From a virus: 64,000 bases of DNA. A program made the translations under genes and the position numbers. The notes beneath the pieces were generated by a model, which saw only the letters and a program-made list of their open reading frames with translations, was not told the origin of the DNA and did not search any database. Numbering within the stretch: the stretch's first letter is position 1; each line of letters opens with the position of its first letter. Positions 5,095 through 7,587 of this stretch are shown here, in pieces. The stretch spans positions 56,728-120,727 of IMG/VR virus record IMGVR_UViG_3300044981_000387; one strand, given 5' to 3'.

Positions 5095-5169
5095 TGGAGG
5101 GCCTTCCGGGAGTTAAACCCAGCTCTGCGAGTTTAGAGTTCGCGGCACAATCGCTATACCAAAAGCCCC
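5095..5169 (-). tRNA. amber-decoding tRNA (anticodon CTA) #1
   Basis: GGGGCTT TT GGTA TAGCGATTG TGCC GCGAA CTCTAAA CTCGC AGAG CTGGG TTTAACT CCCGG AAGGCCC T CCA. Confidence 0.8.
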
Positions 5170-5176
5170 TTTATCT

Positions 5177-5389
5177 TCAGTTCAAGTTGGTAAATTGTTT
5201 AATCGGAGGGTTTTTGACTTCATCCAATGTGGGCAATTCTTCTTTATTTAATTCTGCCTCAAACTCTTGTCTTTGACGATCGGCTCTCTTCTCAAACCAA
5301 TCTTCCGCAAAACGCCATACAACACCCAAAACTGCACCCGCCAATACTACCAAACCCATTAGTTCTACTAACCACATGACTTGCCTCAA
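5177..5389 (-). CDS. small single-TM protein
   Basis: Hydrophobic N-terminus followed by a charged tail. Confidence 0.6.
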   Translation of the reverse strand: MRQVMWLVELMGLVVLAGAVLGVVWRFAEDWFEKRADRQRQEFEAELNKEELPTLDEVKNPPIKQFTNLN

Positions 5390-6351
5390 CTTAATGCCAT
5401 CATTCGATTGATGGACAACCTAGCACCATTCATCAATTCCTCTGACATTATTATCTGAGGATCCAAATCTCTTAAAGAGAGATATACCTTCTCCAAAGTA
5501 TTCTTCTTCATGTAAGGGCACTCATTGCAAGCGCAGCTGGCTTCCGGAGGAGCTGGAATAAAAATTTTATCAGGGCAAGCTTTACGCATCTGATGTAGGA
5601 TACCCGATTCTGTGGCCACAATAAACTCGGAAGCGGAACTGGATACCGCATATTTGAGTAGTCCAGTGGTGGATGAAATATGATCTGCCATATTAAGAAT
5701 GGCTTCCTCGCATTCCGGATGAGCAATAATGAGGGCTTGCGGATGTCGAGTTTTGAGAGCAATCAACTTTCTTTGACTGAAAGTCTCATGCACCACACAG
5801 GTGCCTTGCCACAAAACCATGGGAATGTCGGTCTTTTTGATAATATAGGCTCCCAGGTGCTTATCGGGAGCAAACAGCAGTTGTGAGCCATTCTGGGCGG
5901 CATGTCTAACAATTTTTTCGGCATTGGAAGAGGTGCAAATATAATCGGATAAGGCCTTGACTTCCGCCGAACAGTTGATGTAGCTAATAACAATGGAATC
6001 GGGATATTGAGCTTTCCAATGGGCAAACTGATCGGCAGGACAACCGTCAGCTAAAGAACAGCCAGCCGTTAAGTCGGGAAGCACCACTATTTTATTGGGA
6101 CTAAGAATCTTGGCGGTTTCAGCCATAAAATGGACACCGCAAAAACATATAGTGTCAGCGTTAGTAGCGGCAGCTTGTTGCGACAGTTGCAAAGAATCAC
6201 CAATAAAGTCGGCTACATCTTGAATGTCGGAATCTTGATAATAATGGGCCAAGATAACGGCATTACGACTTTTCTTCAGCTTATCAATCTCTGCTTCCAA
6301 ATCGAGAGAAGGATCGACATACGGCTGATTGAGAATCGGTAGATTATTCAT
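5386..6351 (-). CDS. nadA: quinolinate synthase
   Basis: VILAHYYQ, GDSL, CGVHFMAETAKIL, AGCSLA, YINCSA, CVVHE, HPEC, CNECPYMK. Confidence 0.97.
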   Translation of the reverse strand: MNNLPILNQPYVDPSLDLEAEIDKLKKSRNAVILAHYYQDSDIQDVADFIGDSLQLSQQAAATNADTICFCGVHFMAETAKILSPNKIVVLPDLTAGCSLADGCPADQFAHWKAQYPDSIVISYINCSAEVKALSDYICTSSNAEKIVRHAAQNGSQLLFAPDKHLGAYIIKKTDIPMVLWQGTCVVHETFSQRKLIALKTRHPQALIIAHPECEEAILNMADHISSTTGLLKYAVSSSASEFIVATESGILHQMRKACPDKIFIPAPPEASCACNECPYMKKNTLEKVYLSLRDLDPQIIMSEELMNGARLSINRMMALS

Positions 6352-6553
6352 TTATCACAGCCAATTCATCAGAAATGAAACGAACACTGACATCAAAATA
6401 TTCTTTTCCATTATCTACCACTGGATTATCAAGAAGAACTTTGATGGTACCCGCGCCTTCCCAACCCTCATCGATCAAGACAATTTTACCCATACGATTA
6501 TGAAAGCGCTCTTCGTTAGGAGTATTTACTTTAACACGATCATTAACTTTCAT
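6344..6553 (-). CDS. KOW/SH3-like small protein
   Basis: MKVNDRVKV...GKIV...VLLD. Confidence 0.55.
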   Translation of the reverse strand: MKVNDRVKVNTPNEERFHNRMGKIVLIDEGWEGAGTIKVLLDNPVVDNGKEYFDVSVRFISDELAVINE

Positions 6554-6762
6554 CTGATACTCCTATAGCCTTTATTGAAACACTCATCCATATCCAAATC
6601 GTGATGAATTAGTCTCAGCTTACAACCATAATGTAGTTGAAGCCAAGTATAGATAGTTTCATCTTTGTCTAACAAATAAGCATGCGTGCATTCCACACTA
6701 TCAACGAAAATATCCAACATTTCTTTGTGCTCATCGCACACAGCTTTATACCAAGTCTTCAT
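6550..6762 (-). CDS. hypothetical protein
   Basis: MKTWYKAVCDEH...; start moved to 6762 to limit overlap. Confidence 0.6.
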   Translation of the reverse strand: MKTWYKAVCDEHKEMLDIFVDSVECTHAYLLDKDETIYTWLQLHYGCKLRLIHHDLDMDECFNKGYRSIR

Positions 6763-7060
6763 TTTCCTTAACAAGCTCCAAATCGGCACCCTCATGACCG
6801 TTGCCACCCGACCAATTAGAAAGAACAATTTTACTTCCCAATTCTTGTTCTACTTGTCCAATGGCCCAATCAAGATCTAAGTCCCAAATCCAAATATTAA
6901 GATACACTGGCACGCCATCTAAAAAAATAATAGTGGCAGAACCTTCTTTACCTTTGCCGCCAGTAAACGATATATCTGTATATGTAATTCGTGGATCTGG
7001 CTCGGGATCTGGAAAACCATCTATTTTGTTGATCATTTTATAATATTCAGATAGTTTCAT
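6746..7060 (-). CDS. hypothetical protein
   Basis: MKLSEYYKMINKIDGF...; start moved to 7060. Confidence 0.6.
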   Translation of the reverse strand: MKLSEYYKMINKIDGFPDPEPDPRITYTDISFTGGKGKEGSATIIFLDGVPVYLNIWIWDLDLDWAIGQVEQELGSKIVLSNWSGGNGHEGADLELVKENEDLV

Positions 7061-7256
7061 TTTCCAATTCTTCTTTCCATTTTTCATTGCAGGAATCTTT
7101 ATGACATAATTCATGGGGCCAACCCATAGTGGCAAAATCCCATTTACCTTCCAATAAGAGCAAAACATCTCGTGGCAAAACATATCCCATGCTTTCATAA
7201 ATGGGTGTGCCACAATATATGCATTGTCGTTGAGCCATAAAAGGTAATTGAATCAT
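7047..7256 (-). CDS. hypothetical zinc-ribbon protein
   Basis: CIYCG ... CHKDSC. Confidence 0.55.
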   Translation of the reverse strand: MIQLPFMAQRQCIYCGTPIYESMGYVLPRDVLLLLEGKWDFATMGWPHELCHKDSCNEKWKEELENETI

Positions 7257-7501
7257 AAATCCCGATAATCCTTCAGATCTTCTTTATAATCTTCCCAACC
7301 TCGCACTCGTAGTGCTCGTTGTGCTCCTCTTTTAGCTTTAACATATCCTCGATGTTGCAATTTTTTAATAATAGCTTTGCGTTCTTTGGAATAAGAGCAG
7401 TCTTCCATAAATTGCTTGAAGGTAGAATATCCCGCCGCAAATAAACATAAGGCTTCTTCCGAAGAGGAGTCGCCGAAAAATACTTCCCAATTTATTCTCA
7501 T
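7253..7501 (-). CDS. hypothetical protein
   Basis: 82 aa with GGGAG RBS. Confidence 0.6.
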   Translation of the reverse strand: MRINWEVFFGDSSSEEALCLFAAGYSTFKQFMEDCSYSKERKAIIKKLQHRGYVKAKRGAQRALRVRGWEDYKEDLKDYRDL

Positions 7502-7514
7502 TTATCTTCTCCCT

Positions 7515-7587
7515 TGGCGCCCCTAGCGAATCCTGACATCGCATCAACCGTTTTAGAGACGGGGCTCTTCCTTTGAGCTATAGGAGC
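7515..7587 (-). tRNA. amber-decoding tRNA (anticodon CTA) #2
   Basis: GCTCCTA TA GCTC AAAGGAA GAGC CCCGT CTCTAAA ACGGT TGAT GCGAT GTCAGGA TTCGC TAGGGGC G CCA; aberrant T-loop. Confidence 0.75.

What the first reader, a model, noticed from the sequence alone, without database searches (positions are those of the whole stretch)
5095..7587. Two different amber tRNAs in a genome that is not recoded
Both have the CTCTAAA anticodon loop and encoded CCA but unrelated bodies. #1 has U73, GGGGCTT with one G:G mismatch and a TTTAACT T-loop. #2 has G73, a U3:G70 pair and a GTCAGGA T-loop. Both seem to lack the usual nucleotide 26. All ORFs read well in code 11, and by my hand count only 4 of 108 plausible genes end in TAG (18726, 56438, 59378, 61378). 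This suggests selection against amber stops. The two tRNAs may insert different amino acids (U73 is Cys/Gly-like; G73 is Gln/Trp/Ser-like), giving two-level readthrough control, or may mark an early stage of code reassignment.
Basis: partly seen in the sequence, partly recalled or inferred. Interest (0 to 1): 0.72.

Follow-up and report, generated by a model that had tools for sequence, protein, structure and literature searches.

The report
Amber-suppressor tRNAs gating a phage gene
Two genuine UAG-reading tRNA genes in a fragment of a huge soil phage with the normal genetic code sit beside a small tRNA-hydrolase-like gene that keeps a UAG stop as its fourth codon; dozens of related phages keep this pairing, so the tRNAs probably work as a switch for that gene and do not mark a change of genetic code.

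Summary
Both tRNA genes are real. #1 (5095-5168, minus) and #2 (7515-7587, minus) carry a CUA anticodon. They belong to two unrelated families that keep their cloverleaves through many compensatory changes in related huge phages. Where relatives carry two CUA tRNAs, the two come from different families.

The contig is about 28% of a phage of roughly 400 kb from soil and reads in the standard code. TAG ends only 3-4 of about 183 genes. That rate is not clearly lower than in T4, GAP32 or P-SSM2, so selection against amber stops is not shown.

The Pth2-like gene that ends 9 nt before tRNA #2 starts ATG TGT TCG TAG, and its first core beta-strand follows the TAG. The layout of ribosome-binding site, ATG, 1-4 codons and in-frame TAG recurs in 25 of 37 ortholog clusters. 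Of these, 23 have a CUA tRNA within 4 kb; 10 of 12 clusters without the TAG have none.

My best reading is that the tRNAs are working suppressors whose own target is this gated gene. Nothing here is experimental. This scan has reported the same cassette before on other DNA (at least 221 genomes). I found no published description; the XacN1 paper reports two CUA tRNAs with no targets found.

The parts
5095..5168 (-). tRNA #1, anticodon CUA, family A; encoded CCA, U73, A31-C39 mismatch, 4-nt variable loop, A19-U56-type elbow
   Evidence: ARAGORN calls it. There are orthologs in 3 other lineages; 98.8% of cells are paired and 11 of 21 pairs show compensatory changes.
7515..7587 (-). tRNA #2, anticodon CUA, family B2; encoded CCA, G73, odd T arm (4-bp stem GCGA/UCGC with the 9-nt loop UGUCAGGAU), no nucleotide 26
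   Evidence: Rfam tRNA 33.5 bits. The family model scores 95 bits and finds 8 further lineages. 96% of cells are paired and 12 of 20 pairs show compensatory changes.
7597..7929 (-). Pth2-like gene: ATG 7929-7927, TGT, TCG, in-frame TAG, then 106 codons; stop TGA 7599-7597, 9 nt before tRNA #2
   Evidence: Pfam PF01981, E 7e-10, with profile position 2 at the third residue after the TAG. The AlphaFold model has pLDDT 96.7 and matches Pth2 structures at TM about 0.8. Orthologs.
7918..7920 (-). In-frame amber codon (codon 4) of the Pth2-like gene
   Evidence: Read directly from the sequence. Kept in contigs of three other soil runs. Conserved in 25 of 37 ortholog clusters.
7930..7946 (-). Purine-rich ribosome-binding stretch (GAAAGAGAA) before the ATG that precedes the TAG; relatives have GGAG 5-9 nt before that ATG
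8320..8677 (-). Phage tmRNA in the same co-oriented gene run
   Evidence: Rfam RF00023, 89.3 bits. Syntenic in relatives. Contigs of an RNA library cover 8322-8669.
8692..8921 (-). Three Rfam tRNA matches (ARAGORN calls only the middle one, as Thr GGU), preceded by the best promoter-like site of the region (8962-8934)
9122..9910 (-). Thg1-like tRNA-His guanylyltransferase / tRNA 5'-end repair gene; marks the start of the syntenic tRNA island
   Evidence: Pfam and PHROGs. Used to find the relatives.
59375..59380 (-). Tandem TAG TAG ending the NAD-dependent DNA ligase gene (59378-61252); the next gene lies in the same frame
18726..19514 (-). Glycosyltransferase gene ending in TAG (an ordinary stop; the 67-codon extension is not conserved)
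61378..61953 (-). HslV-like peptidase gene ending in TAG; a back-up TGA follows 3 codons later

Best explanation
Both genes encode working amber-suppressor tRNAs of a huge soil phage that uses the standard code. Their conserved target on the phage's own genome is the UAG at codon 4 of the Pth2-like (peptidyl-tRNA-hydrolase fold) gene directly upstream of tRNA #2.

Proposed mechanism:
- Ribosomes start at the ATG served by the ribosome-binding site and meet UAG three codons later.
- They go on into the Pth2 domain only if a charged CUA tRNA outcompetes release factor 1.
- The enzyme is therefore made only when, and roughly in proportion as, the phage's suppressor tRNA is present. This acts as a tRNA-operated gate or feed-forward delay on a tRNA-maintenance enzyme.

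What is shown by sequence comparison: the tRNA structures, the fixed in-frame TAG, the placement of the ribosome-binding site, coding constraint after the TAG, and the co-occurrence of TAG and CUA tRNA.

What is inferred: expression and charging of the tRNAs, actual readthrough, the amino acid inserted, and the purpose of the gate. Why the phage keeps two different CUA tRNAs remains open. Possibilities are different charging enzymes, different amino acids, or different hosts.
For: 1. tRNA reality. Family B2 (tRNA #2 plus 8 lineages) has 96% of cells paired and 12 of 20 pairs with changes on both sides; 0 of 500 shuffles reach this. Family A (tRNA #1 plus 3 lineages) has 98.8% paired and 11 of 21 pairs. 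The CUA anticodon and U33 are invariant.
2. The Pth2 domain starts right after the TAG. Pfam profile position 2 aligns to the third residue after the TAG. Residue 2 of archaeal Pth2 aligns to the K of DKLY. In the model, strand beta-1 is residues 3-9 after the TAG. The first canonical start after the TAG (GTG 7848) would delete beta-1 and half of helix 1.
3. All four related genomes first examined have ATG, 1-2 codons, then an in-frame TAG before DKLY. Among 47 IMG/VR loci, 25 of 37 clusters do.
4. GGAG sits 5-9 nt before the ATG that precedes the TAG. The codon after the TAG is ATT, ATC, ATA, GTT, AAC, GAA or CTG in all but one lineage, so restarting there is unlikely.
5. Orthologs without the TAG begin M-A-T/S-I-K-x-G-DKLY. 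Those with it begin M-x-(x)-TAG-I/V-K-x-G-DKLY. The TAG therefore occupies a sense position.
6. Co-occurrence: 23 clusters have TAG and a CUA tRNA, 2 have TAG only, 2 have the tRNA only, and 10 have neither; Fisher p=1.1e-5. The tRNA often lies 30-150 nt after the gene, and 9 nt after it here.
7. In relatives, a second gene just upstream (HD-like) has the same ATG, 1-6 codons and TAG, followed by six codons conserved at the amino-acid level with synonymous changes. This holds in 15 of 15 lineages.
8. TAGs in mid-gene, which restarting cannot explain. L071 and L072 have a second TAG in Pth2 at a column that is Q in most orthologs. A G001 gene has TAG where relatives have E or T.
9. The TAG is present in contigs of three other soil runs, one of them an RNA library.
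Against: - Nothing is experimental. Expression, processing, charging and readthrough are all unshown.
- tRNA #1 scores poorly on the general tRNA model and has an A-C mismatch next to the anticodon loop.
- tRNA #2 has a T loop without the usual T54, A58 or G53-C61, so binding of elongation factor and ribosome is an assumption.
- The ribosome-binding stretch in this window (AGAG) is weaker than the GGAG of relatives.
- L053 and L060 have an ATG between the TAG and DKLY, so they do not strictly need readthrough.
- Two clusters with the TAG show no CUA tRNA within 4 kb, and two clusters without it have one.
- The clusters are related, so the Fisher p overstates independence.
- Four genes in the window end in TAG and would be extended by an efficient suppressor.
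- The gate gives no reason for two tRNAs.
- A later check of an earlier report of this cassette priced the 'switch' reading at only 20 in 100.
Confidence: 0.6

Rival explanations
1. The suppressors are general-purpose. They may be aimed at the host, where readthrough of UAG-terminated host genes would aid takeover. Or they are a step on the Borges route to TAG recoding. On this reading the TAGs in Pth2-like and HD-like genes are tolerated by-products or sensors and not the reason the tRNAs exist.
For: - TAG is a rare stop in all four genomes, 1.3-5.5%, as in the standard-code relatives of recoded phages described in bioRxiv 10.1101/2021.08.26.457843.
- Sporadic TAGs occur in mid-gene in relatives.
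- A tmRNA and a Pth2-like enzyme next to the tRNAs could mop up ribosomes and peptidyl-tRNAs produced by readthrough.
- The ligase gene ends in tandem TAG TAG.
Against: - The in-frame TAGs are at one fixed position in the same one or two genes across lineages with 40-55% protein identity. They are not scattered, and they are not in structural or lysis genes as in recoded phages.
- TAG use is not lower than in control phages.
- No release-factor gene was found in four records.
Confidence: 0.15
2. The ATG, few codons and TAG form a tiny upstream ORF. The Pth2-like protein is made by restarting at the next codon, or by another bypass, without any suppressor. The nearness of the CUA tRNAs is then coincidental to decoding.
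For: - The codon after the TAG is often ATT, ATC or ATA, which are weak start codons, and ATG in L060.
- In Cluster C mycobacteriophages the TAG is followed directly by the annotated GTG start, which is better spaced from GGAGG.
- Very short ORFs are known regulators.
Against: - Ten lineages have GTT, AAC, GAA or CTG after the TAG.
- The TAG is always in frame.
- N-termini with the TAG are the same length as those without it.
- Mid-gene TAGs in L071 and G001 cannot be bypassed by restarting.
- TAG co-occurs strongly with CUA tRNAs.
Confidence: 0.1
3. One or both tRNA-like genes do not act in decoding. They could be decaying copies, decoys for host anticodon nucleases, or RNAs with some other role.
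For: - Rfam misses #1 and ARAGORN misses #2.
- The elbows and T loop are non-canonical.
- The anticodon stems are weak: A-C in #1 and C-U at 27:43 in #2.
Against: - Compensatory changes keep all four helices in both families.
- The CCA end and U33-CUA-A37 are kept.
- Sibling tRNAs of this genome share the U56 T loop, so the elbow is a house style and not decay.
- Decay would not be matched by a conserved in-frame TAG next door.
Confidence: 0.1

Closest known systems
Stop-codon-recoded phages with their own suppressor tRNAs (TAG read as Gln, 'code 15'; crAss-like, Lak and others), and their standard-code relatives that carry a suppressor tRNA (bioRxiv 10.1101/2021.08.26.457843)
   Same: A phage-encoded CUA tRNA, a standard-code host assumed, TAG rare as a stop, and in-frame TAG in phage genes.
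   Different: Here coding density is full in code 11. In-frame TAG is confined to codon 3-5 of one gene (two in relatives) for tRNA maintenance, not to many structural and lysis genes. No RF2 gene was found.
Xanthomonas jumbo phage XacN1: two CUA suppressor tRNAs, Thg1 and a peptidyl-tRNA hydrolase in a standard-code genome (PMC5852040)
   Same: A jumbo phage with a near-full tRNA set, two CUA tRNAs, tRNA-repair genes, and few TAG stops (18).
   Different: The authors read through TAG stops at gene ends and found no targets. Here the target is a TAG near the 5' end. XacN1 did not appear among homologs of this Pth2-like protein, so whether it has the same gate was not tested.
prfB (RF2) autoregulation through an in-frame UGA early in its own gene (my own knowledge)
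   Same: A translation-factor-type gene carries an early in-frame stop, so its output depends on the balance between termination and an alternative decoding event.
   Different: prfB uses a +1 frameshift and senses its own product. Here a separate tRNA gene supplies the alternative, and no feedback is shown.
Synthetic suppressor-tRNA feed-forward gates in E. coli (PMC7969014, listed; abstract only)
   Same: Output requires both the mRNA and an amber-suppressor tRNA, which cuts leak and adds delay.
   Different: Those are engineered. This would be a natural version, and it is untested.

Membership tests
tRNA (canonical cloverleaf) | Four helices (7/4/5/5 bp) kept by compensatory change | tested here: met
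   tRNA #1 family: 98.8% of cells paired, 11 of 21 pairs with changes on both sides. tRNA #2 family: 96% paired, 12 of 20 pairs, with a T stem of 4 bp.
tRNA (canonical cloverleaf) | Conserved elbow: G18G19 in the D loop, T54-Psi55-C56 and G53-C61 in the T arm | tested here: not met
   #1: D loop AGCGAUU and T loop UUUAACU (A19-U56 type). #2: T loop GUCAGGA closed by U-U. Rfam scores are low or absent.
Amber suppressor tRNA | Anticodon CUA in a 7-nt loop with U33 and a purine at 37 | tested here: met
   The loop is CUCUAAA in both, and the CUA anticodon with U33 is invariant across both families.
Amber suppressor tRNA | Aminoacylated, and inserts an amino acid at UAG | not testable with these tools
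   Only indirect evidence: conserved in-frame TAGs next to the tRNAs.
tRNA-Pyl (ARAGORN's label) | 6-bp anticodon stem, 3-nt variable loop, 5-nt D loop, one nucleotide between acceptor and D stems | tested here: not met
   Both have 5-position anticodon stems, 4-nt variable loops, 7-nt D loops and two linker nucleotides. pyl genes were not searched.
Recoded (code 15) phage | Many genes interrupted by in-frame TAG; low coding density in code 11 that recovers when TAG is read as sense | tested here: not met
   Coverage is 93.7% in code 11 and 90% with TAG as sense. The extensions behind TAG stops are short and not conserved.
Pth2 (PF01981) for the gated gene | Sequence match over the whole domain, and the Pth2 fold | tested here: met
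   Pfam 39.6 bits against a cut-off of 23. PDB profile hits 2zv3, 1wn2 and 1q7s. Model pLDDT 96.7, TM 0.76-0.83 to Pth2 structures.
Pth2 (PF01981) for the gated gene | Catalytic residues and peptidyl-tRNA hydrolase activity | tested here: inconclusive
   The GKGK stretch of archaeal Pth2 aligns to a gap. An invariant E-P-D aligns near the archaeal D-A-G. Activity was not tested.

The most novel reading that the evidence does not exclude
Huge standard-code phages run a natural switch operated by a suppressor tRNA. One or two tRNA-maintenance enzymes (Pth2-like, HD-like) are locked by a UAG at codon 3-5 and are made only while the phage's own CUA tRNA overrides termination. The usual pairing of two unrelated CUA tRNA families gives the lock two keys, for example charged by different synthetases or usable in different hosts. 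This would name the long-missing targets of suppressor tRNAs in jumbo phages that are not recoded.
Probability: 0.35. Interest if true: 0.85.

Novelty: new variant of a known kind. Interest (0 to 1): 0.7.

Why it matters
Suppressor tRNAs are often annotated in jumbo phages that use the standard code, and their targets have been unknown. The XacN1 authors looked and found none. A conserved UAG near the 5' end of a Pth2-like gene next to the tRNA gives a concrete, testable target. It also suggests that stop-codon suppression can be used as a narrow regulatory device and not only as a genome-wide change of code.

There is a practical point for annotation. Standard gene callers will truncate or miss these genes, and tRNA finders miss some of these tRNAs: ARAGORN misses family B2, and Rfam misses tRNA #1.

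If the switch is real, it is a natural counterpart of synthetic amber-gate circuits and a source of unusual, possibly orthogonal, suppressor tRNAs.

Tried and rejected
- No near or distant DNA match for the tRNAs or the region in GenBank phages.
- No close paralog of either CUA tRNA among 135 tRNAs of the four genomes. The best matches, weak, are Lys(CUU) tRNAs, so the amino-acid identity stays open.
- No RF-1/RF-2 domain gene in G000-G003. These records are incomplete, so this is weak.
- Readthrough of the 41 TAG stops gives short extensions that do not look coding. The few long ones are neighbouring genes that happen to share the frame.
- A genome-wide count of short ORFs (ATG, 1-4 codons, stop) shows no excess of in-frame TAG over TAA or TGA (27, 28 and 23). 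The gate is specific to a few genes and is not a general start motif.
- Other 5' TAG candidates in this contig are not conserved in relatives: 45622-46077, and genome coordinates 19034, 53979 and 55856.
- A six-frame comparison of all ORFs containing TAG was too noisy to use, because off-frame ORFs of related DNA align with each other.
- TAG-stop use in loci with and without the gate (9.7% against 17.8%) is confounded by GC.
- The RNA-library contigs do not cover either tRNA, and short RNAs are not expected in such contigs, so this says nothing about their expression.
- Promoter-like and terminator-like sites do not exceed the shuffled expectation.
- Pfam finds nothing for the HD-like neighbour in relatives. 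The Atlas link to HD / polynucleotide adenylyltransferase clusters is only a lead.
- The nearby tRNAs of the mycobacteriophages can be read as CUA or, for Catera, as Arg UCU, and I left them unresolved.
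Full report
**What the DNA is.** The window is the second half of a single 120,727-bp virus record (38.7% GC, no terminal repeat). CheckV rates it 28% complete. It encodes rIIA, an NAD-dependent ligase, a Thg1-like enzyme, NadA and a PARP-like protein. It also carries a tmRNA and at least 13 tRNAs. Nothing close exists in GenBank phages. The Thg1-like protein picked up six IMG/VR loci on contigs of up to 359 kb with the same gene order: Thg1, Thr tRNAs, tmRNA, CUA tRNAs, Arg(CCU) tRNA. 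The locus occurs in several soil metagenomes.

**The two tRNAs.** ARAGORN calls #1 at 5095-5168 (-) with anticodon CUA, and Rfam does not. Rfam calls #2 at 7518-7587 (-) at 33.5 bits, and ARAGORN does not.

- The acceptor stem of #1 is GGGCTTT/AAGGCCC without a mismatch, and #1 has a nucleotide 26.
- #1 belongs to a family (A) with three other lineages. 98.8% of cells are paired, and 11 of 21 pairs change on both sides.
- #2 belongs to a family (B2) with eight other lineages, found with a model built here. 96% of cells are paired, and 12 of 20 pairs are compensatory. All members share the odd T arm.
- The U56-type T loop of #1 also occurs in two of the neighbouring tRNAs at 8692-8842. I read it as a house style of this genome and not as decay.
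- Across the relatives there are at least five CUA tRNA families. Genomes with two CUA tRNAs mostly pair an odd type (A, B2 or another) with a canonical-looking type. In every case I read, the two belong to different families. This window pairs A with B2.
- U73 of #1 is not conserved in its family. No paralog among 135 phage tRNAs points to an amino acid.

**Code and stop usage.** A codon-usage-scored greedy gene call gives 182 genes covering 93.7% of the contig: TAA 122, TGA 57, TAG 3. A fourth TAG gene, at 56438, is plausible.

- Reading TAG as sense lowers coverage and does not raise it.
- The extensions behind the TAG stops do not look coding.
- TAG as a trinucleotide is not rare in the DNA.
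- Relatives give TAG 5.5%, 3.2% and 1.3%.
- The same caller gives 8.4% for T4, 3.6% for GAP32 and 4.3% for P-SSM2, each on a 50-kb sample. The difference is not significant.
- The preprint version of Borges et al. attributes such scarcity to low GC.

I therefore do not accept TAG scarcity as evidence of selection by the suppressors.

**The missed target.** An earlier first-stage note on this window (e1-5953599) pointed to the ORF just upstream of tRNA #2, and I tested that lead.

- On the minus strand, the 55-aa ORF ends at 7932. Two bases later the sequence reads ATG TGT TCG TAG AAC GAT AAA TTA TAC and continues to TGA at 7597, which is 9 nt before tRNA #2.
- The part after the TAG matches Pfam PTH2 from profile position 2. 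It aligns with archaeal Pth2 from that protein's residue 2.
- It folds with pLDDT 96.7 into a Pth2 fold, with TM 0.76-0.83 to 2zv3, 3erj and 1q7s. The first strand is residues 3-9 after the TAG.
- The first canonical start after the TAG is GTG 7848, which would remove that strand and half of helix 1.

**Conservation of the gate.**

- All four relatives first examined have ATG, one or two codons, then an in-frame TAG one to four codons before DKLY.
- A scan of IMG/VR with the ortholog alignment returned 47 loci.
- After clustering at 85% identity there are 37 clusters, including the window. 25 have the TAG, and 23 of those have a CUA tRNA within 4 kb. 10 of the 12 without the TAG have none. Fisher p=1.1e-5, though the clusters are not phylogenetically independent.
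- GGAG lies 5-9 nt before the ATG that precedes the TAG.
- Orthologs without the TAG begin M-A-T/S-I-K-x-G-DKLY. Those with it begin M-x-(x)-TAG-I/V-K-x-G-DKLY. The TAG therefore stands where a sense codon stands elsewhere.
- The codon after the TAG is a canonical start in only one lineage.
- In relatives a 187-aa HD-like gene directly upstream has the same build in 15 of 15 lineages. Six codons conserved at the amino-acid level lie between the TAG and the next ATG. That gene is not in this 28% fragment.
- Two cases have TAG in mid-gene. One is a second TAG in the Pth2 gene of L071 and L072, at a column that is mostly Q. The other is a TAG in a G001 gene where relatives have E or T.
- Contigs from three other soil runs keep the TAG of this window. 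One is an RNA library, which also holds the tmRNA from 8322 to 8669. DNA can be present in such libraries, so this is weak evidence.

**Reading.** The simplest account is that the CUA tRNAs are active suppressors and that the Pth2-like gene is translated only by reading its codon-4 UAG. That makes the enzyme depend on the tRNA.

- It replaces 'early code reassignment' with a fixed, local use of suppression.
- It does not explain why there are two tRNAs.
- The purpose is inferred. Candidates are a delay or leak-proof lock on a hydrolase that may be harmful early, a sensor of the balance between termination and suppression, or a feedback loop if the enzyme acts on the suppressor itself.
- The rivals are general host-directed readthrough or a stage before recoding, restarting after a tiny ORF, and inert tRNA-like genes. 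They are weighed in their own section of this report.

**Known or new.**

- Phage suppressor tRNAs and TAG recoding are well described.
- XacN1 has two CUA tRNAs for which no targets were found.
- Atu_ph07 has a UCA suppressor.
- My literature searches found no description of a Pth2-like gene gated by a 5' amber codon.
- This scan has reported the cassette before in at least 221 other genomes. One later check upheld the observation but priced the switch reading at 20 in 100.
- I rate it a new variant of a known kind.

Noticed in passing
window 8320-8677 (-): A phage tmRNA (Rfam 89.3 bits) that ARAGORN missed; it is syntenic in relatives. Contigs of a soil RNA library cover 8322-8669, and sequencing adapter abuts 8322, near the tmRNA's 3' end at 8320.
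   Followed up: partly
window 8692-8842 and 5095-5168 (-): Several tRNAs of this genome have U56 in the T loop and G-A instead of G-G in the D loop. This looks like an A19-U56 elbow in place of G19-C56. ARAGORN misses two of the three tRNAs at 8692-8921 that Rfam finds.
   Followed up: partly
window 59375-59380 (-): The NAD-dependent ligase gene ends in tandem TAG TAG, and the next gene (58547-59356) is in the same frame. A double amber stop would limit fusion by readthrough if a suppressor is active. In G001 and G002 the ligase does not end in TAG.
   Followed up: partly
L014:2697-3257 (G001), L044:10308-10844 (G003) and 13 other loci: An HD-like 187-aa gene directly upstream of the Pth2-like gene has the same ATG, 1-6 codons and TAG, followed by six conserved codons before the next ATG, in 15 of 15 lineages. 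There is no Pfam hit. Atlas neighbours include HD / polynucleotide adenylyltransferase clusters. The gene is absent from this contig fragment.
   Followed up: partly
L071:4079-4081 (same in L072): A second in-frame TAG inside the Pth2-like gene, at a column that is Q in most orthologs. It is a single hint that UAG may be read as Gln. The adjacent CUA tRNA there has a long variable arm.
   Followed up: partly
G001 89075-89407 (locus L011): A conserved gene (motif GMALGVDQWAA) has a mid-gene TAG in G001 where G002 has E and this contig has T.
   Followed up: no
L061, L064, L080 (about 5400-5900); L065:4573-4645, L094:3109-3183, L075:5722-5816: Relatives whose Pth2-like gene lacks the TAG carry other odd tRNAs nearby. 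These include tRNAs with 8-nt anticodon loops that ARAGORN reads as UUCA, and UUA (ochre-reading) tRNAs.
   Followed up: no
L098:5103-5174 (LR756500, a 462-kb uncultured phage): The CUA tRNA next to a TAG-gated Pth2-like gene folds with a 6-bp anticodon stem, a 3-nt variable loop and a 5-nt D loop. This shape is reminiscent of tRNA-Pyl.
   Followed up: no
L096 (Myrna 33036-33392), L097 (Catera 90753-91127): In cultivated Cluster C mycobacteriophages the Pth2-like gene's annotated GTG start is directly preceded in frame by GTG TAG or ATG TAG. A tRNA 130-250 nt downstream has a 9-nt loop whose centre is CUA; it is annotated Ser in Myrna and Arg in Catera. GGAGG is better spaced for the GTG after the TAG, so the meaning is unclear.
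   Followed up: partly
window 5386-6351 (-): A quinolinate synthase (NadA) gene lies between the two CUA tRNAs. Its closest cellular relatives are Myxococcota (Polyangiales), at up to 72% identity. This is a weak hint to the gene's donor or the phage's host, despite the large GC difference.
   Followed up: partly
G001 15-122 kb (loci L007-L013): 19 of the 24 TAG stops of the 359-kb relative lie in this third of the genome, which also holds most of its 57 tRNAs. The remaining 237 kb has 5.
   Followed up: no
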